From: Patescibacteria group bacterium
GTDB lineage: Bacteria > Patescibacteriota > Patescibacteriia > XYB2-FULL-38-15
Reading direction: 5' to 3'
DNA length: 64,000 nt
NCBI GenBank assembly: GCA_041737355.1
Contig: JBGSRW010000008.1
Coordinates: 191,061-255,060, forward strand
Of the stretch, positions 5,313 through 57,674 are shown one piece after another. A program made the translations under genes and the position numbers. Numbering within the stretch: the stretch's first letter is position 1; every line of letters starts with the position of its first letter. The notes beneath the pieces were generated by a model that saw nothing but the letters and a program-made list of their open reading frames with translations, was not told where the DNA came from and made no database searches.

Positions 5313-5341
5313 TTGACAAAAACGGCTCCGGGGAATAAGTT
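5313..5341 (+). promoter_or_regulatory. Candidate sigma-70-like promoter (TTGACA-N17-TAAGTT) at left edge of GC-rich cassette A
   Basis: TTGACA at 5313-5318, 17-nt spacer, TAAGTT at 5336-5341. GGAGGAGAGG RBS and ATG follow at 5370. Confidence 0.35.
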
Positions 5342-5369
5342 TAATCTTGGAAAGATAAGGAGGAGAGGC

Positions 5370-5795
5370 ATGGAAGAGAACGGACATGAAGGCGAAGGCC
5401 TTTTCAATTTTGCCTTCGAACAGTTTGAGTACCACCGGAAAAACAACCCGGAAATTACCAAGGCTATCGACGAATTTTGCTGCGGCGCCGGACGAAACGA
5501 ATCGGCGCGGGTGATGTTCCCGGTCTTCTACGCCTTGAGGAGTATCGGTGAGGACGGCGCGTCTGTTCCCCGCGTCTCGGCTGATTCGGCCCAAAAGGCC
5601 AAGGACGAACTTCGCGGAGCCGGAGAAGACGTTCTCGAGCTTCCGATATTCGATGAATTCCGCGGATCAGTCCGCCACTTCACCTTTTTCCTTGATGTTT
5701 CGGTAAGGGAAGAAGAACCGAACCGGAAGGCGAAGCTGCTCTTCGCCACCATCCTACGCATGATCCAAACCGAAAAAATGAGACGATCCGGCTAG
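5370..5795 (+). CDS. Hypothetical protein (GC-rich cassette A, gene 1)
   Basis: ATG at 5370 with strong RBS aaggaggagagg. The ORF-track start at 5274 lies in AT-rich sequence upstream of the promoter, so 5370 is preferred. About 141 aa, GC-rich codon usage unlike neighbours. Confidence 0.5.
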   Translation: MEENGHEGEGLFNFAFEQFEYHRKNNPEITKAIDEFCCGAGRNESARVMFPVFYALRSIGEDGASVPRVSADSAQKAKDELRGAGEDVLELPIFDEFRGSVRHFTFFLDVSVREEEPNRKAKLLFATILRMIQTEKMRRSG

Positions 5796-5817
5796 AAAAA
5801 CGGGAGGACCGCCGCTA

Positions 5818-5851
5818 CGAGAGGCGCCCTTTGGGGAAGGCCTCTTTTTTA
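5818..5851 (+). terminator. Rho-independent terminator
   Basis: gaggc-gccctttggggaag-gcctc followed by TTTTTT. Confidence 0.45.
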
Positions 5852-5859
5852 TTTGCCTA

Positions 5860-5888
5860 TTGACAAAACAAACAAAATGTCCTAAGGT
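5860..5888 (+). promoter_or_regulatory. Candidate promoter TTGACA-N17-TAAGGT
   Basis: TTGACA 5860-5865, 17-nt spacer, TAAGGT 5883-5888. RBS gaaaggaggg and ATG at 5917. Confidence 0.35.
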
Positions 5889-5916
5889 TTAGTGTCCATT
5901 CCGAAAGGAGGGCGAA

Positions 5917-6384
5917 ATGGCAAGTCCAAGCGCCGAAAGGCGCGAACACTGGCTCATGAACAGGTTCTACGAGAAGGTGACTGTCCTAAGGGACACGAAG
6001 TCTTGCGCAGCCAACTGGCTTGATGACTTCAGGGACAGTTTCGCGAAAATCTTCGGGGCCGACCCGACCAAGCTTTGGGATATCATGGCTTTCGACGCGG
6101 GTATTTACCTCATGCTTGAAACGGTCGGTAAGATGGAGGCCGAACGCCTCCTCCCGATGATCAGCAAATATGCCTATGAACAGGCCAAGCGTGAATGGGA
6201 CGGATCCGACGCGCGCGTCATGGTTCAGCGCGAAATGACCTTCGCTATGAACACTTCGCTGTGCGGAATCCTCGAATTCTTCAGCGCAACCCTGGATGGG
6301 CTGCCGCTCGAGAACGAAGGCGGCCGCGCCCACTGCTACAACGAGCTGGCGAAACTTTTCAGGATGATCCGGCTCTCGCGCTAG
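5917..6384 (+). CDS. Hypothetical protein (GC-rich cassette A, gene 2)
   Basis: 155-aa ORF with strong RBS. Followed by hairpin gcatcccctcgcgaggatgc plus a T-run at about 6413-6445. Confidence 0.5.
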   Translation: MASPSAERREHWLMNRFYEKVTVLRDTKSCAANWLDDFRDSFAKIFGADPTKLWDIMAFDAGIYLMLETVGKMEAERLLPMISKYAYEQAKREWDGSDARVMVQREMTFAMNTSLCGILEFFSATLDGLPLENEGGRAHCYNELAKLFRMIRLSR

Positions 6385-6456
6385 AGCCGCTACTAAAAGG
6401 AGGCAAAACAAAAAAAGCATCCCCTCGCGAGGATGCTTTCTTTTATTTTCTAAAAT

Positions 6457-6978: not shown

Positions 6979-8184
6979 CTAAGCAACTCTCCTTCCCGGC
7001 GCCTTCTTTTTAGCCGATTTTTTTAATTCTATAACTTTAGCCGGCTTCGCTTTTTCCGGCTCCGCGCTGATAATTTCGGTCGCCCCCTTTGTTTCGGCAA
7101 TCCATTTTTTCAACGCTTTTTCGTCTTGAGGAGAAATTTCTTTAGCCGCCGTTTGCGCCGCATAAGCCTCTCTCACTCTTTCCAATGATTTAGCCATACG
7201 GTTCAATTGCAATTTGCTCCCCTTCTCCCCCTTGGCGAAGAAAGCCTCTTCCATTATTCCCGCGAGTTCCGGCAAACGCGCCTTAAATCCGGAAGAAATT
7301 TTTGGTTCAAACTTTCCGGCTTTTACCGCTTTCTCTAATTCTTTTGATTTTATCGGTTCAATGTCGTCCCAGGAAGCCACAGCCCTAACCTCGCCCGTCT
7401 TTTTAATTTTTTTCAAAGACACCGGTTCAACTTTTGCTTTCTCCATTTCTTCTTCGCCCGGCTCAATTACTTCCTCGGAAATAACTTCAACCGGCTTGAC
7501 CTCACCAATCGACGGTGGGGCTTCCGCTTCTTCCACTTCCTCGTCCAAGACTTCAACCGCTTTAATTTTTTCAATTGAAGGCGGCTGTTTTGCTTCATGC
7601 TCTTTAGCTATAGCTTCAAATTCCTCAACCGGGGGAAGTTTTTCCCCTTTGCCCGATTCATGAGCGCGAATAATCTCTTCCGTGGATGGAAGATTCAAGC
7701 TTGCCGGTTCGGCAACAAAAACTTTTATCTCCTCGTCCAGGTCGGCTTTTGCCGCTTCCGCTTCCTGCTCAATTTTCGCCTCCTCCGCTTTTGCTTCGGC
7801 CACAACCGGGGCCGCCTCGGCGCTTCCCGCCCCGGCCCGCGTCGCGCTCTCTTCAATCTTGGCCGGAATTTCGGCGCCCTTGTTTTTGATATAAATTATT
7901 TCTTCCTTGGCAACGCTTTCCATCCCTTCCGCGGTTTCCTTGGCCGCTTCCTTTTCCGCCGCGGCCGCTTCCATTTTTTCTTCGTGTTCAAAATAATCGT
8001 TCAAGCGCTCCCAATATTTGCCTATCCCGAATTGGTTAAAAAATCTTGAAACGGCGCCCGGCTTCTTCGGCGGCTTTTCCAATTTCGCCGGTTTTTCCTC
8101 TTCGGCCCTAGTTTTTTCTTGCGGTTCGGCGGCCTCTCCAACCCCGATTTTTTTCTCGTCCATAGTATTAAAATTAATAAACAA
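6979..8184 (-). CDS. Ala/Glu/Lys-rich low-complexity protein
   Basis: 401 aa, extended AEK-rich coiled-coil-like composition (AAAEKEAAKETAEG, EEAKIEQEAEAAKADLDEE). The antisense ORFs at 7214-8049 are treated as shadows of it. Confidence 0.45.
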   Translation of the reverse strand: MFINFNTMDEKKIGVGEAAEPQEKTRAEEEKPAKLEKPPKKPGAVSRFFNQFGIGKYWERLNDYFEHEEKMEAAAAEKEAAKETAEGMESVAKEEIIYIKNKGAEIPAKIEESATRAGAGSAEAAPVVAEAKAEEAKIEQEAEAAKADLDEEIKVFVAEPASLNLPSTEEIIRAHESGKGEKLPPVEEFEAIAKEHEAKQPPSIEKIKAVEVLDEEVEEAEAPPSIGEVKPVEVISEEVIEPGEEEMEKAKVEPVSLKKIKKTGEVRAVASWDDIEPIKSKELEKAVKAGKFEPKISSGFKARLPELAGIMEEAFFAKGEKGSKLQLNRMAKSLERVREAYAAQTAAKEISPQDEKALKKWIAETKGATEIISAEPEKAKPAKVIELKKSAKKKAPGRRVA

Positions 8185-8464: not shown

Positions 8465-8824
8465 TCATTCTCTCGGCGGAAGACCGTTCTTAAGCATCTT
8501 CAATTTCATTCTGGCCCAACCGTGCCCTCCGCCCTGCTCGTCAATAAGCCAGAGATGGCAAAGTATCGGGACTCTTTCCCCTGAAGCCAAATCGCTTGCC
8601 AGCAAAAAAATAACAATTTTTCTCAAGAATTCCAGGTCTTGCTTGGCGGCAGCAAATTCAGCTACCGTTAACCTGACGCTCCTCTCGTGCCATTTCACAA
8701 TTTCGACATAGATGGATATGGCCGCGAGAAGAAGGTCGTCAGGAGCATCGTTGAACCTAGCCCGGATTTTTTGCCGAAGATCCGGGGTCTCTCCTTCTTT
8801 CATTTCCGTCCTCCTCTCGGTCAA
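8465..8824 (-). CDS. Hypothetical protein
   Basis: 119-aa ORF. Internal RBS gagaggagg before the second Met suggests the true start is at about 8803. Moderately GC-rich. Confidence 0.4.
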   Translation of the reverse strand: MTERRTEMKEGETPDLRQKIRARFNDAPDDLLLAAISIYVEIVKWHERSVRLTVAEFAAAKQDLEFLRKIVIFLLASDLASGERVPILCHLWLIDEQGGGHGWARMKLKMLKNGLPPRE

Positions 8825-18995: not shown

Positions 18996-19080
18996 ACATT
19001 TTTGTTAACAGGCAACGGGCAACCTCTAACGCTTTACGTTACAGGCCGTAAGTTGCATGCCAAAAGTTATAAAAAATTAA

Positions 19081-20328: not shown

Positions 20329-20575
20329 CTTCTATTTCTTCGAGTTCCCATGACGGCTTATCAATTTTTTCCACCATGATTTCGGCGTTTTTTGCCAAAC
20401 TATCTTTTGCCAAAAGATGGATGTTAAATTTTAAATTTTCCGGATCGATTTCCGAACCGTGTTCAATAACGCTTCCCAAACCGATTTTAATTTTTGTCAC
20501 TTCCTTGAGGCCGTTCTGCTTGGCATGCTCCAAAACCATTTTTAAAATTCTGTCGGCTTCGTGTAAATCGTGCAT
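20318..20575 (-). CDS. HypA-like hydrogenase maturation protein lacking the zinc-finger
   Basis: 85 aa. N-terminus MHDLHEADRILKMVLEHAK matches the HypA MHE..S nickel-binding N-terminus, but no CxxC...CxxC zinc site is present. Immediately downstream of hydA. Confidence 0.45.
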   Translation of the reverse strand: MHDLHEADRILKMVLEHAKQNGLKEVTKIKIGLGSVIEHGSEIDPENLKFNIHLLAKDSLAKNAEIMVEKIDKPSWELEEIEGEK

Positions 20576-20576
20576 A

Positions 20577-22608: not shown

Positions 22609-22611
22609 AAA

Positions 22612-23115: not shown

Positions 23116-23121
23116 AAAAAT

Positions 23122-24006: not shown

Positions 24007-24042
24007 TTCGGGAACCTCTTAAAACTGGTATAATTTTATCGT

Positions 24043-24721: not shown

Positions 24722-24752
24722 AAAAAAACTCCGCCGCTCCGCGGAGTTTTAA
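24722..24752. terminator. Bidirectional terminator hairpin
   Basis: aaaaaaactccgc-cgc-tccgcggagtttt. A-run on one side and T-run on the other, so it can serve both the + strand PRTase gene and the - strand paralog gene. Confidence 0.5.
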
Positions 24753-24878
24753 AGTTTATCCCCCAGACTTGTCCTTGCAGGTGTGGAGGTAAAAAAATCC
24801 CGCATGAAACTTGCGTAACACGCGGGAAAGCAGCAGTTTTGTCCAAGAGACCTAGAAGGGCCTAGGTTTCAAGAACCA

Positions 24879-25487
24879 CTACTTGTGGACGGCCAAGAAC
24901 CGGTAATGATCGCTCCATTCGATGCCGACCCAGAGTACGAAAAGGTGCCGCTCGTTGAGGCGCCAGTCGAGACAGGCGAAGAAGCGGCCGCCGTGCCGAT
25001 CCATGAAGTGCGAGCCGAGAGCCACGATCCCGAACTCCTTCTGGAGCTCGGGACGAGCGGCGCCGAGGGCCAAGAGCTCTTCGATCTTGGCCGGACGGAG
25101 GCCGCGACGGGCGAGTTCCGCGAGAATTTCGTCGGTCGAGGCCATCTTGTTCATGTGAACGAGGACGAGCTCGCGGAGGACCTTGCCCTCGCCCGAGATC
25201 GGGAAGAACCCGGGGGTGATGTCATCGTTCACGAAGTCGTAGCGGCCGGAGGCGATCATTGCCTCGAGGCTCTGACCATAGTCGACCTCGACCTTGAAGG
25301 TCGCGTCGGAAGGGAGGGCCGCCTTCACCATGGCGATTTCCGCCTGGCCCTTGACGAGAGGCAGCAACCGCGCGAGCAGGTCTCCTTCGGAGAGCCGCTT
25401 CACGTCGGCGTTGGTCCAGCCGTTCCGGCCGAAAGCCATTGCCAGCTCATGGGCCTGGCCAGTTGTCATCTTGAACTCGTCACTCAT
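24879..25487 (-). CDS. Hypothetical protein, paralog family member 1 (GC-rich cassette B)
   Basis: 202 aa. Shares the block GRYDFVNDDIT ... RGLRPAKIEELLALGA.RPE.QKEFGIVALGS ... RFLAV with the protein at 42762-43395. Confidence 0.5.
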   Translation of the reverse strand: MSDEFKMTTGQAHELAMAFGRNGWTNADVKRLSEGDLLARLLPLVKGQAEIAMVKAALPSDATFKVEVDYGQSLEAMIASGRYDFVNDDITPGFFPISGEGKVLRELVLVHMNKMASTDEILAELARRGLRPAKIEELLALGAARPELQKEFGIVALGSHFMDRHGGRFFACLDWRLNERHLFVLWVGIEWSDHYRFLAVHK

Positions 25488-25547
25488 GACTTGTTCTCTT
25501 TCTTTCTCGCAACCGATTCAATCCGAACCCCGTTGCTGTCTTTGGCC

Positions 25548-25564
25548 GAGAGAAATTCCCAGCC
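25548..25564 (-). promoter_or_regulatory. Conserved 17-nt leader motif (minus-strand GGCTGGGAATTTCTCTC), copy 1
   Basis: Identical 17-mer also present at 43522-43538, upstream of the paralogous gene. Lies in the 5' leader of 24879-25487. A candidate minus-strand TTGACA sits at 25597-25602. Confidence 0.4.
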
Positions 25565-25659
25565 AACGAATTATTAAATCATTCTTTGGATATTTTGTCA
25601 ACACCTTTTTAAATAAAAAAGAGCTAGCTTCAAAAGCCAGCTCAAGGAAAAGAAAAGAA

Positions 25660-26418
25660 TCAGTTGCGCTTGCCGTTCTCGGCTATCTTCCGGCAGGCGG
25701 TGAGAGTCGCTTCGGTCCAGTGTTCAAGCCGGCGCGCTTCATTGAGCGTGATGACTTCGACTACCCTGCCCCAGTGAAAAGCAACCAAGTCGCCAGCTCT
25801 GATACGCGGAATAATCTGCGGATCGCGCCGGACAAGACGCTTTTTTTCTTTTTCTTCCAGCTCTGCCAGGAATCTGTTACCCTCGTGCTTCAGAGATCTT
25901 GCCGAAACGGTAAGCTCCGGCCCCTTGCCAACCGAGACGACTTTTCCCCAGCCGATGCGACAAAGCTCCCAGCCGACCGATTCGCGATCCACCTGACCAG
26001 AAATTCCGCCGATTGCGAGAACATGAAAACTGTGGTGCGGCCGGTGCTGATAGTGGACGTGGTCCGTGGTTTCTTTCGCTGCCGCCTCGGTCATCCGGCC
26101 CTCGCCGACAAAACCGAATATCAGCTCCCTCAGATCTTCCGGCCGGACACGGCCGAGGAGTTCGTTGCCAATCCAGTAGGCGTCAACCACGCGGTCGTCA
26201 AGCCAGTCTTCGATTCCGTTTGCCGCGGCAATGAGCTTCAGGTAGGCCGTGGCCGCGGTAAACTGCCCCAAGAGCCGCCTTGCATGATTGTCGTCGACCT
26301 TGCTCTTGGTCGTGAGATACTGGTATAGCTTGCCCTTCTCACTGCCCCGCGGCCCGCAAAGGCCGAGTTCGTTCGGGTAAAGCGCGTAACGCGCCGCCCG
26401 CTCGTATTTCTTTCCCAT
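25660..26418 (-). CDS. Hypothetical His-rich protein translationally coupled to hypC (GC-rich)
   Basis: 252 aa. ATG is 1 nt after the hypC stop, and the hypC 3' end (gggggagaggaggaaaaaa) provides its RBS. Contains a His cluster HVHYQHRPHHSFH. GC-rich, unlike hypC. Confidence 0.5.
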   Translation of the reverse strand: MGKKYERAARYALYPNELGLCGPRGSEKGKLYQYLTTKSKVDDNHARRLLGQFTAATAYLKLIAAANGIEDWLDDRVVDAYWIGNELLGRVRPEDLRELIFGFVGEGRMTEAAAKETTDHVHYQHRPHHSFHVLAIGGISGQVDRESVGWELCRIGWGKVVSVGKGPELTVSARSLKHEGNRFLAELEEKEKKRLVRRDPQIIPRIRAGDLVAFHWGRVVEVITLNEARRLEHWTEATLTACRKIAENGKRN

Positions 26419-34302: not shown

Positions 34303-34395
34303 CAAATAAAATTAAAAAAGATTCTGTTTGACAGGGTCTTTTTTATTTTATACCCTAATGTGATGCCCAAAAGGGAGGAAAAAGGAGGAGGGTGA

Positions 34396-35364
34396 ATGGA
34401 ACAGGTTATCATATCGGGAAACGCCAACCGGCTACTGGCCGAAAAAGTGTGCGGAATTCTACACGCCAAGCTCGGCGAAGCCTGGGCAGGACGCTTTGCC
34501 GACGGAGAAGTTGATGTCGGCGTGCCCAACGTCCGCGGCAAGCATGTGGTCATCCTACAGCCGACTCCCCCGCCGGCGGAAAACTGGTTCGAAATATTCT
34601 TTATGGCCGACGCGGCCATCAGCGGTTCGGCTGAAGAAGTCACGGTCTTCATGCCCTATATGGGCTACGCCCGGCAGGATCGCAAGGACAAGCCGCACCG
34701 CCCGATTTCCGCCAGAGCCATGATTAGAATGCTTGCGGCAATGGGAGTCGACAGATTGATGACCATGGATCTCCACGCCGCCCAGATCCAGGGCTTCACT
34801 CTGCTTCCCTTTGATAATCTCTATCTCTCCTCCACTCTGCTCGAATTCCATCGGGATCTCCCCTGGAAAACCGGCGCGGTGATTGTCTCGCCCGATGCCG
34901 GCGGCGTCGGGCGGGTTAGGGCAATTGCCAAGATTCTTGGCTGCGAGATTGCCTTCATCGACAAACGCCGCGACGGACCGAACCAGTCCGAAGTGATGCA
35001 TGTCGTCGGCGAAGTCAAAGGCAAGATCGCCGTGATGTTGGACGACATGATCGACACAGCCGGCTCTCTCGTCAAGGGCGCCGAAGCGGTCATGGCCGAA
35101 GGCGCGACCGAGGTCCATGCCGTCGGTTCGCACGGCGTCCTCTCCCGGAACCAGAACCCCGAGAAGGATTCGATTGAACGGCTGAAGAAGTCGCCGCTCA
35201 AAACCCTCGTCATTTCCGATTCGCTTCTGATCCCGGAGGAAAAGCGATTCGACCGCATGCACATCGTTTCTTGCGCACCGCTCGCCGCCGAAATGATCCG
35301 GCGCGTTCACAACCGAGAACCGGTTAGCCCGCTCTTTGAGGAGGCCTTTCGCTGGGTAAAATAA
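34396..35364 (+). CDS. prs: Ribose-phosphate pyrophosphokinase (PRPP synthetase), GC-rich
   Basis: YARQDRK, DLHAAQIQGF, VSPDAGGVGRVRA, DDMIDTAGS motifs. Strong RBS aaaggaggagggtga. About 60% GC versus about 42% in adjacent prfA. Confidence 0.85.
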   Translation: MEQVIISGNANRLLAEKVCGILHAKLGEAWAGRFADGEVDVGVPNVRGKHVVILQPTPPPAENWFEIFFMADAAISGSAEEVTVFMPYMGYARQDRKDKPHRPISARAMIRMLAAMGVDRLMTMDLHAAQIQGFTLLPFDNLYLSSTLLEFHRDLPWKTGAVIVSPDAGGVGRVRAIAKILGCEIAFIDKRRDGPNQSEVMHVVGEVKGKIAVMLDDMIDTAGSLVKGAEAVMAEGATEVHAVGSHGVLSRNQNPEKDSIERLKKSPLKTLVISDSLLIPEEKRFDRMHIVSCAPLAAEMIRRVHNREPVSPLFEEAFRWVK

Positions 35365-35570
35365 CCCGGCAAAAATCAAATAGTCCGCCCGAATTTCCCC
35401 TAAAATTCGGGCTTTATTTATTATTAAGACTTGACAAACCCGCTTTTCTGTAATACCCTGAAAATATCATAAATGGTGGCCATCCCGCCAAAGAGGCGGG
35501 AAGGAAGGTGGCCCTAGACATCTGCCGATAGACGGCGGATTAAAAATAGGGAAGGTTGGAGGAGAGAGAA

Positions 35571-35831
35571 ATGTTTTTGGAGAGCCTCGGCATGGATCCG
35601 GAAACCGGTACGATCGGCGCTTCTTCGCTCGGTGCGATCCACGTCAAGAACCGGATTGACCCGGAAAAACCGCTCCGTCGCTGCCAGGAACCCGGTTGCG
35701 GTACGATTCTCCGCAGCGGCAACCCGGACAACTACTGCTCGCTGCACACCTGCTCCGAAAGGCGCGGCAAGAAGTACACCGACTCCGTCGCCCTCCGGCG
35801 CCGGAAGCGGATGCATCTCGTCCGCGTCTGA
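35571..35831 (+). CDS. Small Cys-containing (zinc-ribbon-like) hypothetical protein
   Basis: ATG at 35571 with RBS ggaggagagagaa. CQEPGCGTILRSGNPDNYCSLHTC Cys pattern. Basic C-terminus. Confidence 0.4.
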   Translation: MFLESLGMDPETGTIGASSLGAIHVKNRIDPEKPLRRCQEPGCGTILRSGNPDNYCSLHTCSERRGKKYTDSVALRRRKRMHLVRV

Positions 35832-35926
35832 CCCGCCAAAAACGTGAGAGCCGCGAGTTCGCTCGCCGGCCCTCCGTTCCCAATTCGCGACCAAGGGCTC
35901 CGTCTCCCCCCGGCCCGGCCGCGAAA

Positions 35927-35985
35927 CCCGCACAGTGTCTTGGACAAGAGTCCCACTCCTTCCAGACACTGTGCGGGTATTTTTT
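35927..35985 (+). terminator. Rho-independent terminator
   Basis: cccgcacagtgtct ... agacactgtgcggg long stem followed by TATTTTTT. Confidence 0.5.
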
Positions 35986-35988
35986 ATC

Positions 35989-36017
35989 TTGACAAATTAA
36001 ATTTTTTAAATTAAGGT
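35989..36017 (+). promoter_or_regulatory. Candidate promoter TTGACA-N17-TAAGGT
   Basis: TTGACA 35989-35994, 17-nt spacer, TAAGGT 36012-36017. Same architecture as 5860-5888. Confidence 0.35.
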
Positions 36018-36083
36018 GCGGATAGAAAGGACTTGCCAAAACAACCCCGCGAATCGCGGGCAAAAGGCAAGCGGGAGGAAGAC

Positions 36084-36584
36084 ATGGCAGACGACAAGAG
36101 GGAGAAGGCAAAGGTACTTCTGGCGGACCGCCTGCGAACCCTGCAGGCCGCCGAATTTCTGGACTTCGAGGACATCGTGCGCCACCTGCAAGGTGGCGAC
36201 AGCCTCGCCCGCACCATCGTGAATCTCGCCAAGGTTGTCGGCTTCGACAGCGTCTACGGCGATCTCTACGCCAGGGCGGTCTTCAAGGACAACGGGAAAG
36301 GAATCGTCCAGACCTGGAAGAAGGCTCTCCTGAACGAGGTCTCTCTGGTCGAGGAGCTGCTTCGCAACATCCCCAACGACGAAATCCCCCTCCTCTTCAA
36401 GTTCTGGCTCACGGAGACGCGTGAACGCGCCACCTGGGAACAGCTCGTCAACGCCACCCCTTACGCCATCCTCCGGGCCTGCGCCTCCGAGGGCGACAAG
36501 CGTGCCGACGAAGCTGCCGCTGATGCGGAAGTCGTCGACGAGGAGGTCATGGAGATCGGAGAACCCTCCGACGACGGGAAGTGA
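36084..36584 (+). CDS. Hypothetical acidic protein (GC-rich cassette C)
   Basis: ATG at 36084 with RBS gcgggaggaag. The track ORF begins at a TTG at 36033. About 166 aa, acidic C-terminal tail. Hairpin plus T-run follows at about 36606-36650. Confidence 0.45.
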   Translation: MADDKREKAKVLLADRLRTLQAAEFLDFEDIVRHLQGGDSLARTIVNLAKVVGFDSVYGDLYARAVFKDNGKGIVQTWKKALLNEVSLVEELLRNIPNDEIPLLFKFWLTETRERATWEQLVNATPYAILRACASEGDKRADEAAADAEVVDEEVMEIGEPSDDGK

Positions 36585-36671
36585 TCCGTCACGGCTATAC
36601 GAGCCGCCTCCGCCATCCGCGCAATGAGCCATTGCTCAAAGTGCGGATTTTTTTATGTTATAATTCCATTG

Positions 36672-41472: not shown

Positions 41473-41540
41473 AAAATTTTATAAAATTATTTTTAAACCG
41501 ACGTCTTGACAAAAAAGTTTATTTGTATTAACTTAGCCTG

Positions 41541-41738
41541 TTGGAGGTGAAAATCATGGCGCATGAAGAAAAGCCCGAGACGGGCAAAGTAGTCGTAATT
41601 CCGACGATTCCCCTGCTGCCTTCCGGCGTCTACGATATGGGAACAATCACCCGCCTTATTTCCGAAGCCGAACTCGCCAACAATCCGCCCGCGTCCGAGG
41701 AATCCAGCTCCGCCGTGCCGAAGCCAGAGGAGGACTAA
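41541..41738 (+). CDS. Small hypothetical protein
   Basis: 65-aa ORF with ggaggtgaaaatc RBS. Followed by hairpin acccgc...gcgggt plus T-run. Confidence 0.3.
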   Translation: MEVKIMAHEEKPETGKVVVIPTIPLLPSGVYDMGTITRLISEAELANNPPASEESSSAVPKPEED

Positions 41739-42625
41739 TTCGAACCCGCCTGAAAATCTCGAGCGGGTTTTTTTCTTTTTCCGGCCTGAGAAATAAAATT
41801 TAAAACTTCCATATGTTTTCTGACAATTTCTCCAATTCTCCCGCCCATCTCGTCTTCATGGTCTCCCAAAAATCTTGAAACATCGTCAAAATTCTTCAGC
41901 TTTCTGCCCTCCCCTAATAATCTGGCGCGGACTAAAACATAATTAATAAATTCCAGCAACTGTTCTTCCGCCGAGGCGAGAAAATCATATTTTTCGCCTG
42001 CGTCGCGCGCCCAATCGGATTTTTCCGCCATCAGTTTTTGCAAAGCAACCGTTTTTTCCGGCCCCAAGGCCAAAACTACGCGCGGCATCTCCGCCTTTCC
42101 CGCCTTGCCGTCCGGATCCTCAAGGTATTTTATTTCAACCATTTTCGCCTGGCTCAATTTTTCAAAAACTTTTCCGGCTTTTCTGTGTAAAACCGAAGGG
42201 TCCGCCGAAGTTGTCGCGTCAACTGCCAAATAAACGAACTTGTCAGTATCTTCGTCCAAGAAAGCCACCACGAAATCGGTGCCATTCGTAATATCGTCGT
42301 ACTCCGCGGTTTTTCGCACCGATTCAACGTTTTCGCCAAACCAGCCGCTAACTTTTATTCCTTCCATCAAAACATACTCCAAATCAACCGCCTCGCTGCT
42401 TTTTTCATGGATATAATCCGGTGATTTTTTTATCCGCCTGATTTTCTCCTCATCCTCACGAACTTCCTCGCGCGGATAAACTTTTCCGATGAAATCTTCC
42501 GGGCGAAAAGCCGAATCTCTATGGGGCCTCGCGATTTTACGGTTAAACTCTTCGTTGTTTCCAAGACCAAAAATCTTTCGCGCCTCGAGTCCGGCGAGCA
42601 TATTTCTCTCCACACTCATAATCAA
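41735..42625 (-). CDS. Hypothetical protein
   Basis: 296-aa ORF. No recognisable motifs. Confidence 0.4.
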   Translation of the reverse strand: MIMSVERNMLAGLEARKIFGLGNNEEFNRKIARPHRDSAFRPEDFIGKVYPREEVREDEEKIRRIKKSPDYIHEKSSEAVDLEYVLMEGIKVSGWFGENVESVRKTAEYDDITNGTDFVVAFLDEDTDKFVYLAVDATTSADPSVLHRKAGKVFEKLSQAKMVEIKYLEDPDGKAGKAEMPRVVLALGPEKTVALQKLMAEKSDWARDAGEKYDFLASAEEQLLEFINYVLVRARLLGEGRKLKNFDDVSRFLGDHEDEMGGRIGEIVRKHMEVLNFISQAGKRKKPARDFQAGSN

Positions 42626-42761
42626 ATATCCTTAATAATTTACGCTTTTATTATAGCAAAAAATTGAAAATAAAAAAACGGCCCCGCTTCATTTCCTTTG
42701 CCTTTTGAGCATTAGATTTGAAACGGGGCCAAGAGACCGAAAGACCAAGAGGCCGCGGAGT

Positions 42762-43395
42762 TTAGTCAGAGGGCCAAACTTCGCAGAGCCTAAGGGTCTT
42801 TTTGGGAACAGCCAGAAATCGCTCTTCCTGATCCCATCCCCCGAAGCCCGAGTGCAGGACCAAAAACCGCTTTCCCTCACCGTTCCCGCAGAGGCCCGCG
42901 AATTTGCTGCTAATGTCCGGTTTTCCTCGGCACGAACCGAGGGCCACGATCGGAAACTTCTTCTGCTCCTCCGGGAACCTCGCCCCGAGAGCAAGAAGCT
43001 CCTCAATCCTGGCGGGCCGAAGACCGCGATGCTCCATCTCCGCGAGAACCTCGTCGGTTCTCACCATCTTATCCGGCCCCGGGTAGACAAGGATGAGCTT
43101 GCGCTCGGCCTTGCCCTCGCCTGTGATGTCAAATTGGGAGAAGAGGTCTTCGCACGTGGGCTTCTCCTCGTTACAAACTGGACAGATTTCGTCGGTGATC
43201 TCCTTGTCCACCAAGTCGTAGTGGCCAGCGGCGATCATCTCAGGAAGATCGATGAAGTAATTCACTACCACCTTGAAGCTCCGGTCGGCGAACTGACCCG
43301 GATTCCGCAAGAAGACCTGAAAGGCCTCACGCGTCACCCGGCCGGACTCGATCTGGTGGTGGAGTTCGGAAATCTGCTCGATCGTCGGCTTTGCC
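42762..43395 (-). CDS. Hypothetical protein, paralog family member 2 (GC-rich cassette D)
   Basis: Start taken at MAKPTIEQ with RBS gcaaggagaaaagaaa. GHYDLVDKEIT ... RGLRPARIEELLALGARFPEEQKKFPIVALGS ... RFLAV, paralogous to 24879-25487. Confidence 0.5.
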
Positions 43396-43521
43396 ATTTT
43401 CTTTTCTCCTTGCATCTTTCGGTATTCGCCAGGGCATCCCCACATTATTGTTGGGACAGCCTTTTGATAAACCGACGAGACGCTTGCTCCGCACTCCTGG
43501 CAAAGAGTGAAGAACCTAGCT

Positions 43522-43538
43522 GAGAGAAATTCCCAGCC
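43522..43538 (-). promoter_or_regulatory. Conserved 17-nt leader motif (minus-strand GGCTGGGAATTTCTCTC), copy 2
   Basis: Identical to 25548-25564. A candidate minus-strand promoter TTGACA (43637-43642) -N17- TATTAT (43614-43619) lies upstream. Confidence 0.4.
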
Positions 43539-43658
43539 TTGTTTTGAAGGTCATAAAACCGTCAAAATAAGGCTAGAAATTCAACTTTAAAAGAACCATT
43601 TTACTAACGTTTTATAATAACAAATTTTCAATGTTTTGTCAATAGTAATTCTCGATAA

Positions 43659-54551: not shown

Positions 54552-54656
54552 AAAAATCAAAAACTGCTCTTTTCGGGGGCAGTTTTTGGTCTTGCTATCC
54601 CCTTCCGTGATTTCCACGGAGGGTCCGAGCCCATGGCAAAAGAAAGGAGGAACGCC

Positions 54657-54887
54657 ATGACTCGACATACTGAAACACAGGAAGAGAGCGGTCTGAGGTG
54701 CATTCACAAGAAGATCTGGGGCCAATGTGCCTGCTGCCGGGGAAAATTCGGTATGCTGGCGATCGAGTTTGACATCATACTCGGTCGGAACCAGCCGCCG
54801 GAAGTCGTCGGCAACTTGGTGGCAGAGGCCATCCGAAAGATGCGCCGAGGAAAGGAGGAAATGGAAAGACGTGGGTTCAGTCCCTAG
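54657..54887 (+). CDS. Small Cys-rich hypothetical protein (GC-rich cassette E)
   Basis: ATG at 54657 with RBS aaaggaggaacgcc. About 76 aa with a WGQCACCRGKFG Cys cluster. GC-rich. Confidence 0.35.
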   Translation: MTRHTETQEESGLRCIHKKIWGQCACCRGKFGMLAIEFDIILGRNQPPEVVGNLVAEAIRKMRRGKEEMERRGFSP

Positions 54888-54913
54888 TGACGTAGAACGC
54901 GCAAGATCGAAAA

Positions 54914-54954
54914 GGGCGTGAATGCTAACTGCATCACGCCCACTTTTTTATTTT
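54914..54954. terminator. Hairpin terminator (overlaps miaA 3' end; possibly bidirectional)
   Basis: gggcgtga-atgctaactgca-tcacgccc followed by ACTTTTTTATTTT. Confidence 0.45.
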
Positions 54955-55872
54955 ACCTTCCGCTTCCTTATAATTTCTTATCCATTTTATTCTTTTATCA
55001 CGTCTGAACCAAGTCATTTGCCGCCGGGCGTAAGCGTGTGTTCTAAACTTTATCCTCTGTGCCGCCTCACTTATGCCGTACACCCCATTCAAATAATCCT
55101 CCGCCTCCTTATAGCCAATTCCACTCATTGATGGAAGGTCTGGTTTGTATTTTTTTAATAATTTTTTAGTTTCTCCGACTAAATCATCTTTTATCATTTG
55201 CTCCACGCGCTGATCGATATTTTCATAAAGTTTTTCCCGTGGTAAAGTTATTCCGATTTGTAAAACATTGAACAGCGGCTCGCCCTTTTCCCGCAACTTT
55301 GAAAACGGCCGGCCGGTGGCAAGGCATACTTCAAGCGCCCGGATAATCCGCCGAGGATTATTTTTATCAACTACATCAACCGCGCCCGGATCAAGTTTCA
55401 ACAATTTTTTATACCATTTTGCGAGCGCTCCCGGCTTTTTAATTTCTTTTTCAAATTGCACCCTTAGTTTTTTATTCGGCGGCACAGCCGGAATTTCCAA
55501 ATTGTCCACCACGGATTGAATATATAAACCTGTTCCCCCAACTAAAAACGGCACCTTGCCGCGCTTTAAAATATTCTTAATCGCCGCTACGGCTTTCTTT
55601 TTATAATAAGCCAAAGTGAATTCTTTATCTGGGCTAACGATGTCCAATAAATGGTGCACTACACCGCCGGCTGTTATCTGCGTTAATCCGCGTTTATATC
55701 TGCGTTTATCTGCTTCTATTTTTCCGGTGCCAATATCCATTCCCTTGTAGATCTGCCTGCTGTCCGCGTTAACCACCTCACCGCTAAATTTTTTTGCTAA
55801 TTTCAAAGACAGACCCGTCTTTCCCGACGCCGTCGGACCTAAAATTATAATCAGTTTTGGCAGCGTTGACAT
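54934..55872 (-). CDS. miaA: tRNA dimethylallyltransferase
   Basis: IILGPTASGKTGLSLKLAKKF P-loop, DSRQIYKGMDIGTGK. Confidence 0.85.
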   Translation of the reverse strand: MSTLPKLIIILGPTASGKTGLSLKLAKKFSGEVVNADSRQIYKGMDIGTGKIEADKRRYKRGLTQITAGGVVHHLLDIVSPDKEFTLAYYKKKAVAAIKNILKRGKVPFLVGGTGLYIQSVVDNLEIPAVPPNKKLRVQFEKEIKKPGALAKWYKKLLKLDPGAVDVVDKNNPRRIIRALEVCLATGRPFSKLREKGEPLFNVLQIGITLPREKLYENIDQRVEQMIKDDLVGETKKLLKKYKPDLPSMSGIGYKEAEDYLNGVYGISEAAQRIKFRTHAYARRQMTWFRRDKRIKWIRNYKEAEGKIKKWA

Positions 55873-55876
55873 TTTT

Positions 55877-57154
55877 TTATCCTTCTAGAATCCACTCAAA
55901 GGATTTTTTTATTTTGACATTAAAAATCTTGCCGACCATATTTTTCTTGCCAGGGAACCGAGCCATTTTCATTTCCCGGGAATTGCCAATGCATTTTCCG
56001 TCTTTATACTTATCCACGAGCACCGACACGGTTTTTCCGACATATTGCTGATTTTTCTCTAAAACAATTTTTTCCATTAAATCCTGAAGCACCCGCCAGC
56101 GCCGCTTTTTTTCAATTCGCGGAACATCGTCTTTCATTTTCGCCGCCGCTGTCCCCTGCCGCGGCGAATATACTGCGAGATATGCAATATCAAAATTGGC
56201 TTTTTTATAAAGTTCCACCGTGTTTTGAAAAGCTTTTTTTGTCTCGCCGGGAAACCCGACAATAATATCCGTGCCGAGCGCCATCCCCGGCTTTTTTTTA
56301 TTTATTTTGGCGACAAGCTTTAGGTAATCGGCAGCGGTATAACTGCGATTCATCCGTTTTAAAACTTTGTCATCCCCTGCCTGAAGCGGCAGATGGAGAT
56401 AATTCACCATCTTTGGCAAAGTCAGAGCGTCAATTACCTCATCTTTCATGTCGCGCGGATGAGGCGCGGTAAAATGAATCCGCTTGATTCCCGTAATCCG
56501 GTTTGCTTCCCAAAGCAAGGCGGCAAAAGGATGTTTATATGGATTTTTTTTGGAAAAATTTTTTATATCGGCCGGCCGGTAGGCATTAACATTCTGCCCC
56601 AAAAAAGTTATTTCCAAACAGCCGTTTTTTGCTAAATTTTTCACTTCGGCGAGGATCTCGGAAACGTCGCGGCTCGTTTCCCTTCCCCGGACATAAGGCA
56701 CGGCGCAGTACGAACAAAAATTATTGCAGCCGGTCATAATCGGAATAAAAGCGGAATACTGCGTTGAATATCTCGGCTCGATTTTAAAATAATGAGTATT
56801 CCAATCGCGGCATTCGGCCTGAAAGGCTTTGATATTGGTAATCTGTTTGATATCCAAAACCGCGTCAAATTTTCCCAAAAACTTTTTCTTGTCCGCAGGC
56901 AAAAGGCAGCCGGTCAGAATCGTGAAAAGCCCGGGCTTTGTCCGTTTCATTTTGGCAAAAATCCGGGCCTGGCCGTAGATCCTGTCAACCGCCGCCTGGC
57001 GCACGGAACAGGCCACCACAACGATTAAATCGGCCTCAGAGGCCTCACTGACCGACCCATAGCCCATTTTCTCCAAAACCGTCGCCACCCGCTCAGAGTC
57101 GCTTTTATTCATTTGGCAGCCGTAGGTGATAATGTGGTATTTTTTCTTAGCCAT
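55877..57154 (-). CDS. miaB: tRNA-i6A37 methylthiotransferase (radical SAM)
   Basis: YHIITYGCQMNKSDSE UPF0004 N-terminal domain, CNNFCSYCAVPYVRG radical-SAM CxxxCxxC, C-terminal TRAM. Confidence 0.85.
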   Translation of the reverse strand: MAKKKYHIITYGCQMNKSDSERVATVLEKMGYGSVSEASEADLIVVVACSVRQAAVDRIYGQARIFAKMKRTKPGLFTILTGCLLPADKKKFLGKFDAVLDIKQITNIKAFQAECRDWNTHYFKIEPRYSTQYSAFIPIMTGCNNFCSYCAVPYVRGRETSRDVSEILAEVKNLAKNGCLEITFLGQNVNAYRPADIKNFSKKNPYKHPFAALLWEANRITGIKRIHFTAPHPRDMKDEVIDALTLPKMVNYLHLPLQAGDDKVLKRMNRSYTAADYLKLVAKINKKKPGMALGTDIIVGFPGETKKAFQNTVELYKKANFDIAYLAVYSPRQGTAAAKMKDDVPRIEKKRRWRVLQDLMEKIVLEKNQQYVGKTVSVLVDKYKDGKCIGNSREMKMARFPGKKNMVGKIFNVKIKKSFEWILEG

Positions 57155-57192
57155 GAAAATATTTTAACAAAAAAATGTTTTTTCTTCAACCC

Positions 57193-57220
57193 TTGACAAA
57201 TTAGCATTATCATGTAAAAT
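57193..57220 (+). promoter_or_regulatory. Candidate promoter TTGACA-N16-TAAAAT
   Basis: TTGACA 57193-57198, TAAAAT 57215-57220. RBS gaaaggagtg and ATG at 57247. Confidence 0.4.
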
Positions 57221-57246
57221 AGAGAGTTCCCGAAAGGAGTGTTCCG

Positions 57247-57627
57247 ATGGGCGAAGTTCACGGGCTCTTCCAGGACGCCCGTTACAACCGGGCGATGTTC
57301 GAGAGAATCGCTGCCGTGAGCCTTACCGAAATCAACGGCAGAATGGCTCTGCGGCTCGACCTTTCAACTGGCGATCTGCATCTTGACTGGCTGAACAGCG
57401 TACCAACTTACCGCTTCGTCATTGACAATGGCGCGCGGATTCTCGAAGGAAAGCACTGGCATATCTTCCGGCACGAACCGGAACCGCCTTACTTCGTTGA
57501 AGTTAGACTGCAAAATCTCTCTACGAGGGCCAAGGAGGAAACCCTCGGAGACTGGACCACGCTGCAAGTCGTGATCCAAGCTGATGGAAACGTCGAAAAG
57601 CATTTCGAGGTCAAGAAGGCCTCGTAG
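57247..57627 (+). CDS. Hypothetical protein (GC-rich cassette F)
   Basis: 126-aa ORF. GC-rich. No recognisable motif. Confidence 0.45.
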   Translation: MGEVHGLFQDARYNRAMFERIAAVSLTEINGRMALRLDLSTGDLHLDWLNSVPTYRFVIDNGARILEGKHWHIFRHEPEPPYFVEVRLQNLSTRAKEETLGDWTTLQVVIQADGNVEKHFEVKKAS

Positions 57628-57632
57628 ACTCC

Positions 57633-57674
57633 GGGACCAACTGCGCAAGACCGCTTTTGGTCCCGTTTTATTTT
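57633..57674 (+). terminator. Rho-independent terminator
   Basis: gggaccaa-ctgcgcaagaccgct-ttggtccc followed by GTTTTATTTT. Confidence 0.55.

What the first reader, a model, noticed from the sequence alone, without database searches (positions are those of the whole stretch)
5313..57674. Family of at least six self-contained, sharply GC-rich gene cassettes scattered through a low-GC genome
Six segments are abruptly GC-rich (about 58-62% by eye) against about 40-48% flanks: about 5313-6445 (A), 24700-26418 (B), 34330-36650 (C), 42690-43640 (D), 54590-54954 (E) and 57193-57674 (F). Each carries its own consensus -35 TTGACA promoter with 16-17 nt spacing (three copies share the unusual -10 TAAG[G/T]T), a strong GGAGG-type RBS, one to three ORFs of unknown function and a hairpin/T-run terminator. 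Boundaries coincide with gene ends of conserved host genes. No integrase, transposase or flanking repeats were seen, so they do not look like classical mobile elements. The recurring architecture suggests repeated acquisition of small autonomous expression units from a high-GC donor, or a cassette-type system not previously described.
Basis: partly seen in the sequence, partly recalled or inferred. Interest (0 to 1): 0.85.

Follow-up and report, generated by a model that had tools for sequence, protein, structure and literature searches.

The report
GC-rich accessory gene islets in Falkowbacteria
Seven small GC-rich stretches in this low-GC candidate-phyla-radiation genome are real, separately transcribed accessory genes, two of them targets of a mutagenic retroelement; sister species carry most at the same sites, so they are old foreign-looking acquisitions and not a new mobile cassette system.

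Summary
All 11 ORFs in the flagged segments, plus a seventh islet at 41506-41775, have GC3 of 0.60-0.84. That is above every one of 56 host ORFs (maximum 0.575). All 8 exact TTGACA-N16-18-TANNNT sites in the window (0.89 expected) lie directly upstream of these ORFs.

The host is a Candidatus Falkowbacteria (Patescibacteria).
- Islets A, B2, C, E and F sit at the same junctions, and are equally GC-rich, in sister species.
- G is a clean insertion in one sub-lineage.
- B1 and D1 are variably present.
- No integrase, attC-like site or target duplication was found.

Islets from about ten genomes share one compositional signature. It is far from the host's and closest to that of a 60%-GC Patescibacterium. 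B1 and D1 belong to a Patescibacteria-only family with a C-type-lectin fold. In a homologous contig this family is the variable protein of a complete diversity-generating retroelement (DGR), with VR/TR adenine mismatches and a reverse transcriptase. The window itself has no TR or RT.

Best reading: promoter-to-terminator, moron-like units captured from GC-rich Patescibacteria, then inherited, swapped through conserved flanks, and slowly ameliorating. Why they stay GC-rich is not settled.

The parts
5313..5852 (+). Islet A, unit 1: promoter TTGACA-N17-TAAGTT (5313-5341), RBS AAGGAGGAG, ORF A1 5370-5795 (141 aa, orphan), hairpin plus T-run about 5821-5851
   Evidence: The orthologue in L173 is at the same junction: 44% identical, GC3 0.68, promoter conserved. 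The hairpin was seen by eye only.
5860..6449 (+). Islet A, unit 2: promoter TTGACA-N17-TAAGGT (5860-5888), ORF A2 5917-6384 (155 aa), terminator 6414-6439 plus T-run
   Evidence: GC3 0.74. Only 5 homologues among 5.8 billion proteins. The L173 orthologue is 75% identical with GC3 0.75.
24725..25607 (-). Islet B, unit 1: -35 TTGACA at 25601-25596, 5' leader with conserved hairpin motif GGCTGGGAATTTCTCTCGGCC (25564-25544), ORF B1 24879-25487 (202 aa, C-type-lectin-fold protein of a DGR variable-protein family; VR-like 3' end 24881-25017), terminator 24750-24725
   Evidence: GC3 0.84. Absent at this junction in L005.
25621..26418 (-). Islet B, unit 2: DUF6390 gene 25660-26418 (252 aa). Its ATG abuts the hypC stop codon (26419-26421), and it has no promoter of its own. 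Terminator 25643-25621.
   Evidence: Pfam PF19927, E 1.2e-45. Sequence junction. The L005 orthologue is 65% identical with GC3 0.65, next to a low-GC hypC. Terminator.
34328..35412 (+). Islet C, unit 1: promoter TTGACA-N17-TACCCT (34328-34356), prs (ribose-phosphate diphosphokinase) 34396-35364, terminator 35387-35412
   Evidence: NCBIfam PRK01259, 330.6 bits against a cutoff of 297.. GC3 0.71. Orthologues between prfA and prmC in L004, L088, L089 and L090 have GC3 0.67-0.72; in L007 GC3 is 0.41.
35431..35985 (+). Islet C, unit 2: promoter TTGACA-N17-TACCCT (35431-35459), leader of about 110 nt, ORF C2 35571-35831 (86 aa, Cys-rich, weak HNH-like match), hairpin plus T-run about 35927-35985
   Evidence: PHROG 144, E 3.5e-5. 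Homologues at the same locus in L004, L005 and L090 are 42-62% identical with GC3 0.74-0.80. The hairpin was seen by eye only.
35989..36650 (+). Islet C, unit 3: promoter TTGACA-N17-TAAGGT (35989-36017), ORF C3 36084-36584 (166 aa, acidic tail, clade-restricted orphan), hairpin plus T-run about 36606-36650, which overlaps the nominal prmC ATG
   Evidence: Seven-species alignment A4. 13 representative clusters at E<=0.001 among 1.84 billion. dN 0.56-0.68 with GC3 0.73-0.84 in all species. The hairpin was seen by eye only.
41506..41775 (+). It is inserted antisense between two co-oriented host genes.
   Evidence: Present in L090. Absent in L003, L005, L006 and L089, where the two flanking genes are only about 25-45 bp apart. 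The hairpin was seen by eye only.
42680..43642 (-). Islet D: promoter TTGACA-N17-TATTAT (43642-43614), leader of about 215 nt containing GGCTGGGAATTTCTCTC (43538-43522), ORF D1 42762-43397 (211 aa, paralogue of B1), terminator hairpin about 42735-42680
   Evidence: BLASTP of B1 against D1: 45% identity, E 3e-33.. The junction holds no ORF in L003 (269 bp with a short leader-like remnant) and holds different GC-rich ORFs in L005 and L006. L006 shares the leader and terminator DNA. The terminator was seen by eye only.
54590..54954 (+). Islet E: ORF E1 54657-54887 (76 aa; alternative start 54633), RBS AAGGAGGA, hairpin plus T-run about 54918-54950, no consensus promoter
   Evidence: The orthologue in L093 lies between miaA and gatB, is 73% identical, and has a local GC of 0.59 in a 42% genome. 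The hairpin was seen by eye only.
57193..57674 (+). Islet F: promoter TTGACA-N16-TAAAAT (57193-57220), ORF F1 57247-57627 (126 aa), terminator 57649-57662 plus T-run
   Evidence: GC3 0.66. The L093 orthologue at the same junction is 36% identical, with local GC 0.52-0.56.

Best explanation
The segments are the accessory, lineage-specific gene complement of a Candidatus Falkowbacteria (Patescibacteria/CPR) chromosome. There are seven small transcription units or short unit clusters wedged between conserved core operons.

They share a GC-rich 'dialect': GC3 0.6-0.84, preferred codons AAG, CTC and GTC, and their own dinucleotide signature. The corresponding islets of about ten related genomes have the same dialect, and it most resembles that of GC-rich Patescibacteria.

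Most likely history (inferred):
1. The genes were captured at different times by horizontal transfer within Patescibacteria from GC-rich lineages, as promoter-to-terminator units comparable to phage morons. The likely route is natural transformation with illegitimate or homology-facilitated recombination, not a dedicated recombinase.
2. A, B2, C, E and F were already in the common ancestor of the clade. G entered one sub-lineage. B1 and D1 come and go.
3. The units are then inherited vertically, occasionally swapped between species by homologous recombination through the conserved flanking genes, and ameliorate only slowly.

Function is heterogeneous. prs makes PRPP. DUF6390 is translationally coupled to hypC next to a [NiFe]-hydrogenase cluster. 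B1 and D1 are C-type-lectin-fold ligand-binding proteins of a family that DGRs diversify by adenine-directed mutagenic retrohoming. The rest are fast-evolving orphans.

Shown: the composition, the architecture, the synteny, the presence/absence pattern, the DGR membership of the family, and the recombinant L089 islet. Inferred: the donor type, the insertion route and the slow amelioration.
For: Composition and architecture:
- Complete GC3 separation between islet and host ORFs.
- All 8 perfect promoter matches lie at islets. In eleven sampled related loci of the same clade (L003-L006, L088-L090, L092, L093, L173 plus the window), about 33 of 39 such sites are followed by DNA of at least 53% GC.
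- Islet-to-host delta* is 0.17-0.21 against a null maximum of 0.078.
- Islets of this window against islets of nine relatives give delta* 0.054.

Donor type: the 60%-GC Patescibacterium L012 is the nearest locus on three measures.
- delta* 0.099.
- RSCU correlation r=0.93.
- Third-position composition: islets A .144, T .146, G .294, C .415; L012 .124.153.293.430.

Gene families are Patescibacteria-restricted. All named homologues of B1/D1 are Patescibacteria, A2 has 5 homologues, and C3 has 13 representative clusters.

Gain, loss and replacement:
- G is present in the window and L090 but absent at tight gene junctions in four species.
- B1 is absent in L005. The D junction holds no ORF in L003 and holds other GC-rich ORFs in L005 and L006.
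- The rpsB-L31 junction has GC-rich inserts in four relatives but none here.

Exchange via flanks: core genes place L089 in a different clade from the window, yet its prs (85%), C3, prmC and the 3' end of prfA are most like the window's clade.

HGT among Patescibacteria is documented (PMC12455944).

DGR link:
- L091 carries a B1 homologue, a VR/TR pair (14 of 34 adenines mismatched against 1 of 100 other bases, p=5e-9) and an RVT_1 reverse transcriptase.
- The B1 3' end differs from that TR mainly at adenines (21/34 against 17/100, p=3e-6).
Against: No donor genome or element carrying these genes natively was found. No IMG/VR hit for the B1 family, and no homologues in the 21-kb L012 locus.

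GC-richness has persisted although fourfold sites have diverged by 0.6-0.9 substitutions per site between species. prs GC3 is 0.67-0.72 in five species, the same as in a 57%-GC Uhrbacteria prs (0.72). Simple amelioration from a realistic donor fits only with generous assumptions.

Inside DGR cassettes (L091, L082) only the target gene and TR are GC-rich, while RT, Avd and integrase have host composition. This points to a gene-specific cause for that family.

DUF6390 is translationally coupled to a host-composition hypC, which is an unusually precise fit for a foreign gene.

prs orthologue distances roughly track the core genes, including the non-GC-rich L007 copy.
Confidence: 0.55

Rival explanations
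1. Composition is maintained in situ. The islets are long-resident genes whose GC-rich composition is actively held by a force specific to the gene or transcription unit. Candidates are selection on mRNA or DNA composition of strongly promoted units, biased repair, or, for DGR targets, selection against sense-strand adenines. Foreign origin is then not needed to explain the GC content.
For: The same GC3 is seen in five to eight species despite near-saturated synonymous divergence. prs GC3 equals that of a Uhrbacteria prs, so there is no visible decay. The composition switch falls sharply at gene boundaries, even at the hypC stop / DUF6390 start junction. Inside DGR cassettes the target and TR are GC-rich but the RT and Avd are AT-rich. 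The B1 family shows adenine avoidance at third positions that strengthens toward the VR: A/(A+T) 0.38, 0.28, 0.18 across the gene, against 0.41-0.50 in GC-rich genomes. Consensus promoters associate with GC-rich genes across the clade. prs fourfold-site divergence is lower than in core genes for the same species pairs.
Against: No known mechanism gives 20-35 points of GC3 to chosen genes. Ribosomal-protein, EF-G and EF-Ts genes are not GC-rich, and islet codon choices (AAG, CTC, GTC) are not those of the host's highly expressed genes (r only 0.49). GC1, GC2 and the Arg/Lys ratio shift too. The syntenic prs of L007 is not GC-rich. Parsimony flux in prs is 53 GC->AT against 17 AT->GC, though about 2:1 is expected from parsimony bias alone. 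No motif avoidance was found. A and T are equally depleted in the non-DGR islets.
Confidence: 0.25
2. Translational selection. The islet genes are very highly expressed, and their codon usage is the optimised extreme of the host's own preference.
For: The promoters have perfect -35 boxes and the RBSs are strong. The host's highly expressed genes also shift toward C-ending codons such as ATC, AAC, TTC, ACC and GGC.
Against: Islets exceed ribosomal-protein and EF genes by 0.1-0.3 in GC3. Lys, Leu and Val preferences are opposite to or different from those of the host's highly expressed genes. Amino-acid composition and dinucleotide signature also differ.
Confidence: 0.07
3. A new site-specific mobile cassette system. 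The units would be moved by a dedicated but unrecognised machinery.
For: The promoter-ORF-terminator design recurs. At the D junction, the window and L006 have different ORFs between shared leader and terminator DNA. G is a precise antisense insertion.
Against: No conserved end sequences, inverted or direct repeats, or target duplications. No recombinase in the window. The gene contents are unrelated. Most units are stable at one locus across species. The shared D-junction flanks are explained by orthology plus modular N-terminal exchange in the B1 family.
Confidence: 0.05
4. Assembly or binning chimera: GC-rich fragments from another organism were spliced into the contig.
For: The source is a metagenome-assembled genome.
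Against: An independent Logan assembly gives an identical 20.7-kb stretch. The same islets lie in the same places in more than ten independently assembled genomes from different studies.
Confidence: 0.01

Closest known systems
Phage 'morons' (independent promoter-gene-terminator units inserted between genes, often of deviant composition)
   Same: The anatomy matches: own sigma-70-type promoter, one ORF and an intrinsic terminator, sitting exactly between neighbouring genes. Base composition differs from the surroundings, and no recombinase or repeats are present. G is even inserted antisense within an operon.
   Different: The units lie in a bacterial chromosome among housekeeping genes, not in a prophage. 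Most are conserved across species. No PHROG hits except one weak HNH-like match.
DGR variable (target) proteins with a C-type-lectin fold, as in Bordetella phage Mtd, Treponema TvpA and the CPR DGRs
   Same: B1 and D1 have a C-terminal CLec/FGE-type fold. A homologue sits in a canonical target-VR/TR-RT cassette with adenine-specific mismatches. The B1 3' end carries the same adenine-site substitution pattern, followed by a hairpin.
   Different: No TR and no RT in the 64-kb window. B1 and D1 may be remote targets of a DGR elsewhere in the genome, or retired targets. The whole gene is GC-rich, not only the VR, while the RT of related cassettes is AT-rich.
Horizontally acquired genomic islets or ORFan genes recognised by atypical composition (Lawrence-Ochman amelioration framework)
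   Same: Atypical GC, codon usage and dinucleotide signature. Patchy presence for some units. Narrow taxonomic range. Fast evolution.
   Different: The direction is the reverse of the usual pattern, from my own knowledge that acquired genes are typically AT-richer than their host. The anomaly is shared by orthologues in many species, and little amelioration is visible.
Integron gene cassettes
   Same: Small, mostly single-gene units of unknown function, in variable arrays at fixed sites.
   Different: These cassettes have their own promoters. There are no attC-like repeats and no intI, and the units are scattered, not arrayed.

Membership tests
DGR variable protein (B1, D1) | C-terminal C-type-lectin/FGE-type fold that displays the variable residues | tested here: met
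DGR variable protein (B1, D1) | VR at the 3' end with a cognate TR that differs from it at adenines | tested here: not met
   No TR-like repeat of the B1 or D1 3' end anywhere in the window. The feature is met in homologue L091: VR 7236-7372, TR 7715-7851, 14/34 A against 1/100 non-A mismatches. B1 against the L091 TR gives 21/34 against 17/100 (p=3e-6); D1 is weaker (p=0.03).
DGR variable protein (B1, D1) | DGR-type reverse transcriptase in the same genome | tested here: inconclusive
   tblastn with the L091 RT finds nothing in the window. The window is 64 kb of a 268.9-kb contig, and the rest could not be read.
Phage moron | Autonomous promoter-ORF-terminator unit between two genes, with deviant composition | tested here: met
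   for A1, A2, C1-C3, D, F and G, with the hairpins of A1, C2, C3, D and G read by eye. Not met for B2 (operonic with hypC) or E (no consensus promoter).
Phage moron | Located in a phage or prophage genome | tested here: not met
   The neighbours are prfA, prmC, rpsB, tsf, fusA, gatB, miaA/B, ThrRS and hydrogenase genes. No phage genes and no IMG/VR relatives.
Integron cassette or integrase-borne genomic island | attC or att repeats, integrase, tRNA target | tested here: not met
   No tRNA. No repeat family at the boundaries. No integrase among the ORFs scanned or annotated on matching contigs.
Recently acquired foreign DNA | Atypical composition and absence from the same site in close relatives | tested here: inconclusive
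   Composition is atypical: met. Absence in relatives is met for G, B1 and D1. It is not met for A, B2, C, E and F, which are syntenic and GC-rich in relatives.
Ribose-phosphate diphosphokinase (prs, C1) | Full-length match above the curated cutoff | tested here: met
   NCBIfam NF002320, 330.6 bits (cutoff 297). Pfam Pribosyltran_N, Pribosyltran and Pribosyl_synth all match.
DUF6390 (B2) | Pfam PF19927 match above the gathering score | tested here: met
   156.4 bits against 25, covering residues 8-244 of 252.

The most novel reading that the evidence does not exclude
Within one small chromosome, a defined set of transcription units is held at its own compositional equilibrium (GC3 about 0.7-0.85 against about 0.45-0.5 for the core) over timescales on which synonymous sites are randomised. 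The force would be specific to the gene or transcription unit, for example biased repair or conversion tied to these strongly promoted units, or retroelement-linked selection against sense-strand adenines that spreads beyond the VR. Under this reading the 'foreign' signature is made locally and not imported.
Probability: 0.2. Interest if true: 0.8.

Novelty: new variant of a known kind. Interest (0 to 1): 0.5.

Why it matters
Acquired or accessory genes are normally AT-richer than their hosts. Here a whole clade of ultra-small Patescibacteria shows the reverse. The accessory genes form a sharply bounded class with one shared GC-rich signature, each unit usually having its own consensus promoter.

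If the signature is imported, it marks a directional gene flow from GC-rich to AT-rich Patescibacteria. It also gives a simple compositional handle for finding the flexible genome, including orphan DGR targets, in CPR metagenome bins.

If it is maintained locally, it would be an unexplained case of compartmentalised base composition in a bacterial chromosome. The result also links a Patescibacteria-only protein family to DGR diversification, and points to a conserved 5' leader in front of those genes.

Tried and rejected
- Structural RNAs as the cause of GC-rich patches: no Rfam family at gathering threshold and no tRNA.
- Phage origin: no IMG/VR relative of the B1 family. PHROGs gave only a weak HNH-like hit for C2, and PADLOC gave nothing.
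- Whole-gene adenine mutagenesis by an RT as the cause of GC-richness: rejected for the non-DGR islets, where sense-strand A and T are equally depleted (A3 .144, T3 .146). It holds only as a graded extra effect in the B1 family.
- Avoidance of endoribonuclease or restriction motifs: no tri- or tetranucleotide is depleted beyond stop-codon-related ones.
- Target-site duplications or shared end motifs: filled and empty sites at the D and G junctions show none. The L003 D site holds a short leader-like remnant, so it is not a pristine empty site.
- Strain-level SNP spectrum: the only second copy (L001) is 100% identical to the window.
- Polarised substitution counts in prs: 53 GC->AT against 17 AT->GC. 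My estimate is that about 2:1 is expected from parsimony bias at this composition, so the result does not decide between decay and stationarity.
- Amelioration arithmetic from fourfold sites: prs is compatible with an old import only if the donor GC4 was about 0.9. The C3 numbers are too noisy (25-60 sites).
- Ancestral position of prs: in Uhrbacteria, prs is not between prfA and prmC.
- The first attempt to scan viral contigs with the broad alignment failed for lack of conserved stretches.

Full report
**1. The observation**

A sliding GC profile and a run-finder confirm GC-rich stretches at all six stated places.

At gene level the signal is cleaner. The 11 ORFs inside the segments have GC3 0.60-0.84. 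The 56 host ORFs have mean 0.49, sd 0.04 and maximum 0.575, so the two distributions do not overlap. GC1, GC2 and the Arg/(Arg+Lys) ratio shift as well.

The base-composition-normalised dinucleotide signature of the islets differs from the host's by delta* 0.17-0.21. Random host gene subsets of the same size differ from the rest by 0.036 +/- 0.011, maximum 0.078.

The regulatory claim also holds. TTGACA-N16-18-TANNNT occurs 8 times against 0.89 expected, and no shuffle reaches 8. Every hit lies just upstream of a GC-rich ORF. It has a promoter, a GGAGGTG RBS, a 60-aa ORF and a terminator.

Terminator-like hairpins were scored for A2, B1, B2, C1 and F. The others were seen by eye in the sequence.

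There are three exceptions to 'self-contained'. The DUF6390 gene starts on the base after the hypC stop codon and has no promoter. B1 has a poor -10. E has no consensus promoter.

No tRNA, Rfam family or flanking repeats were found. No integrase appears among the ORFs scanned or annotated on matching contigs.

**2. Whose genome, and is the assembly real**

prfA and its neighbours identify a Candidatus Falkowbacteria (Patescibacteria/CPR). Several species representatives have 88-89% identical prfA and conserved gene order. An independent Logan assembly contains an identical 20.7-kb stretch. The same islets recur in more than ten independently assembled genomes (below). A chimera is therefore excluded.

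**3. What the genes are**

- C1 is a full-length ribose-phosphate diphosphokinase.
- B2 is DUF6390. It is coupled to hypC beside the subunits of a [NiFe] hydrogenase and hypA.
- B1 and D1 are paralogues, 45% identical with E 3e-33.
- A1, A2, C2, C3, E1, F1 and G1 have no Pfam or NCBIfam assignment. C2 has a weak HNH-like PHROG hit. Nothing matches PADLOC.
- A2 has only five homologues among 5.8 billion proteins.
- C3 has 13 representative clusters among 1.84 billion, but aligns across seven species. These orphans are therefore real, clade-restricted genes.

**4. B1 and D1 are DGR-family variable proteins**

On contig L091 a 68%-identical homologue is followed by a 137-bp repeat of its own 3' end and an RVT_1 reverse transcriptase. 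The repeat pair differs at 14 of 34 template adenines but at only 1 of 100 other positions, p=5e-9. This is the DGR signature described in PMC5758913.

The B1 3' end (24881-25017) aligns to that TR and differs mainly at its adenines (21/34 against 17/100, p=3e-6). D1 shows this more weakly.

The window itself contains neither a TR nor an RT. B1 and D1 are therefore remote or retired targets, and this cannot be settled from 64 kb of a 268.9-kb contig.

**5. Comparison with relatives**

The junction between prfA and prmC is GC-rich in every close relative examined, but its content varies.
- prs is present in L004, L088, L089 and L090 (76-85% identical, GC3 0.67-0.72). It is absent in L003, L005 and L006.
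- C2 and C3 homologues are 30-62% identical, with GC3 0.73-0.86.
- In the more distant L007 (38% GC genome) prs is at the same place but has GC3 of only 0.41.

Other islets:
- DUF6390 in L005 is GC-rich next to a low-GC hypC, and B1 is absent there.
- The A islet with both ORFs and both promoters is present and GC-rich in L173.
- E1 (73% identical) and F1 (36%) are at their junctions in L093.
- G is present in the sister species L090. It is absent from four species, in which the two flanking genes are 25-45 bp apart. G is thus a clean, antisense insertion of about 260 bp.
- The D junction holds no ORF in L003 (269 bp with a short leader-like remnant). It holds unrelated GC-rich ORFs in L005 and L006, and a B1-family gene in L092.
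- The rpsB-L31 junction, empty here, carries GC-rich genes in four relatives.

So some units are ancestral to the clade, and others are gained, lost or replaced.

Trees of four core genes place L089 in a different sub-clade from the window. Its prs, C3, prmC and the 3' end of prfA group with the window's sub-clade. The islet was therefore exchanged together with its flanks by homologous recombination.

**6. One shared signature**

Islets of the window and islets of nine other genomes differ by delta* of only 0.054, but differ from the host by 0.17-0.20. On three measures the nearest locus I hold is L012, a 60%-GC Patescibacterium whose prfA is 64% identical:
- dinucleotides, delta* 0.099;
- RSCU, r=0.93, though other GC-rich taxa reach 0.90-0.92;
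- third-position composition, islets A .144, T .146, G .294, C .415 against L012 .124.153.293.430.

Codon choices such as AAG, CTC and GTC are not those of the host's own highly expressed genes; the correlation of shifts is only 0.49.

Across eleven sampled loci of the clade (L003-L006, L088-L090, L092, L093, L173 plus the window), about 33 of 39 exact TTGACA-type sites are followed by DNA of at least 53% GC.

**7. Import or local maintenance?**

For import:
- The signature looks foreign, and the gene families are restricted to Patescibacteria.
- Units are gained and lost.
- Gene transfer among Patescibacteria is documented (PMC12455944).

Against a simple import story:
- Fourfold sites of prs differ by 0.6-0.9 substitutions per site between species, and NG86 dS is 1.0-1.3. 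Yet GC3 is the same in five species and equals that of a Uhrbacteria prs (0.72).
- Within DGR cassettes only the target and TR are GC-rich, while RT, Avd and integrase match the host.
- The composition switches exactly at the hypC/DUF6390 stop-start junction.

Tests that did not decide:
- Polarised singleton counts in prs give 53 GC->AT against 17 AT->GC. I estimate about 2:1 from parsimony bias alone.
- Amelioration arithmetic allows an old import only with a donor GC4 near 0.9.

Three possible causes were rejected: motif avoidance, translational selection and whole-gene adenine mutagenesis. The B1 family does show an extra third-position adenine avoidance, which increases toward the VR: A/(A+T) 0.38, 0.28, 0.18.

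I therefore give import from GC-rich Patescibacteria, followed by inheritance, flank-mediated exchange and slow amelioration, a probability of 0.55. Local maintenance gets 0.25.

**8. Comparison with known systems**

The anatomy is that of phage morons, but in a cellular chromosome among housekeeping genes. Integron cassettes and integrase-borne islands fail their defining features. B1 and D1 fit the DGR variable-protein family by fold and by homology to a bona fide target, but lack an in-window TR and RT.

What stands out:
- the reversed direction of the compositional anomaly (GC-rich accessory genes in an AT-richer genome);
- its uniformity across a clade;
- its persistence.

**9. Verdict**

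This is not a new cassette system. It is a compositionally coherent accessory gene class, a new variant of known islets or morons, that includes orphan DGR targets. The persistence of its GC content is unexplained.

Noticed in passing
window 25544-25564 (-) and 43522-43538 (-); also L084 7928, L091 6704, L092 122, L006 18645: A conserved 5'-leader element, GGCTGGGAAT-N5-7-C(C/T)C(G/A)GCC, lies upstream of B1-family genes in six genomes. It can form a 7-bp hairpin. The 5' arm is invariant, and the 3' arm shows only one-sided changes (G-U to G-C, U-G to U-A). It could be a cis-regulatory RNA or a protein-binding site that travels with the DGR-target family.
   Followed up: partly
window 26419-26652 (-) hypC and 25660-26418 (-) DUF6390; hydrogenase genes at about 19000-29400: DUF6390 is translationally coupled to hypC (TAG immediately followed by ATG). 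The pair sits beside Fer4, FAD/NAD-binding, small-subunit (Oxidored_q6) and large-subunit (NiFeSe_Hases) genes and hypA. The pairing is conserved in L005. DUF6390 may be a hydrogenase-maturation accessory.
   Followed up: no
B1-family genes: window 24879-25487, 42762-43397; L082, L084, L086, L091, L092: Sense-strand adenine is strongly avoided at third codon positions across the whole DGR-target gene, and the avoidance strengthens toward the VR. A/(A+T) is 0.38 in the first part, 0.28 in the middle and 0.18 in the last 141 nt. The value is 0.41-0.50 in GC-rich genomes and 0.50 in the other islets.
   Followed up: partly
L089 341-3590 compared with window 34300-37523: L089 belongs to a different sub-clade by ftsW, DUF3048, L25 and hyp289. 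Its prs, C3, prmC and the 3' end of prfA are nearest to the window's sub-clade. This is a recombinant islet with its flanks.
   Followed up: partly
window 35460-35570: A leader of about 110 nt lies between the C2 promoter and its start codon, with two GC-rich hairpins (ggccatcccgcc...ggcgggaaggaaggtggcc and ctgccgatagacggcgg). No Rfam family matched at the gathering threshold.
   Followed up: no
window 36624-36672: The longest prmC ORF starts inside the C3 terminator hairpin. Homologues align only from residue 17, so the real prmC start is probably near 36672.
   Followed up: no
window 8465-8824 (-): A 119-aa host-side ORF is mildly GC-rich (GC3 0.55, R/(R+K) 0.58) and fast-evolving. It is 44% identical to its L173 orthologue, which has GC3 0.64. 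It may be an older, partly ameliorated member of the same class.
   Followed up: no
L006 6560-8760; L002 3839-4171, L004 4329-4592, L005 9307-9576: The rpsB-L31 junction, empty in the window, carries GC-rich inserts in relatives. L006 has a 447-aa Cys-rich ORF that looks radical-SAM-like by eye (CxxxCxxC near the N-terminus; not run against any family library) together with a second Cys-rich protein. Three other species carry a conserved 87-110-aa protein containing the sequence CHKRRCSMA.
   Followed up: no
window 62134-63615 (-), repeats 62595-62991: A host protein has five thrombospondin type-3 repeats and a PKD domain. Its internal DNA repeats account for one of the GC-rich patches that is not an islet.
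   Followed up: no
window 41735-41780: The last roughly 10 codons of the host ORF 41735-42625 (-) run through the terminator hairpin of islet G, and relatives do not align there. The insertion appears to have altered the C-terminus of the neighbouring gene.
   Followed up: no
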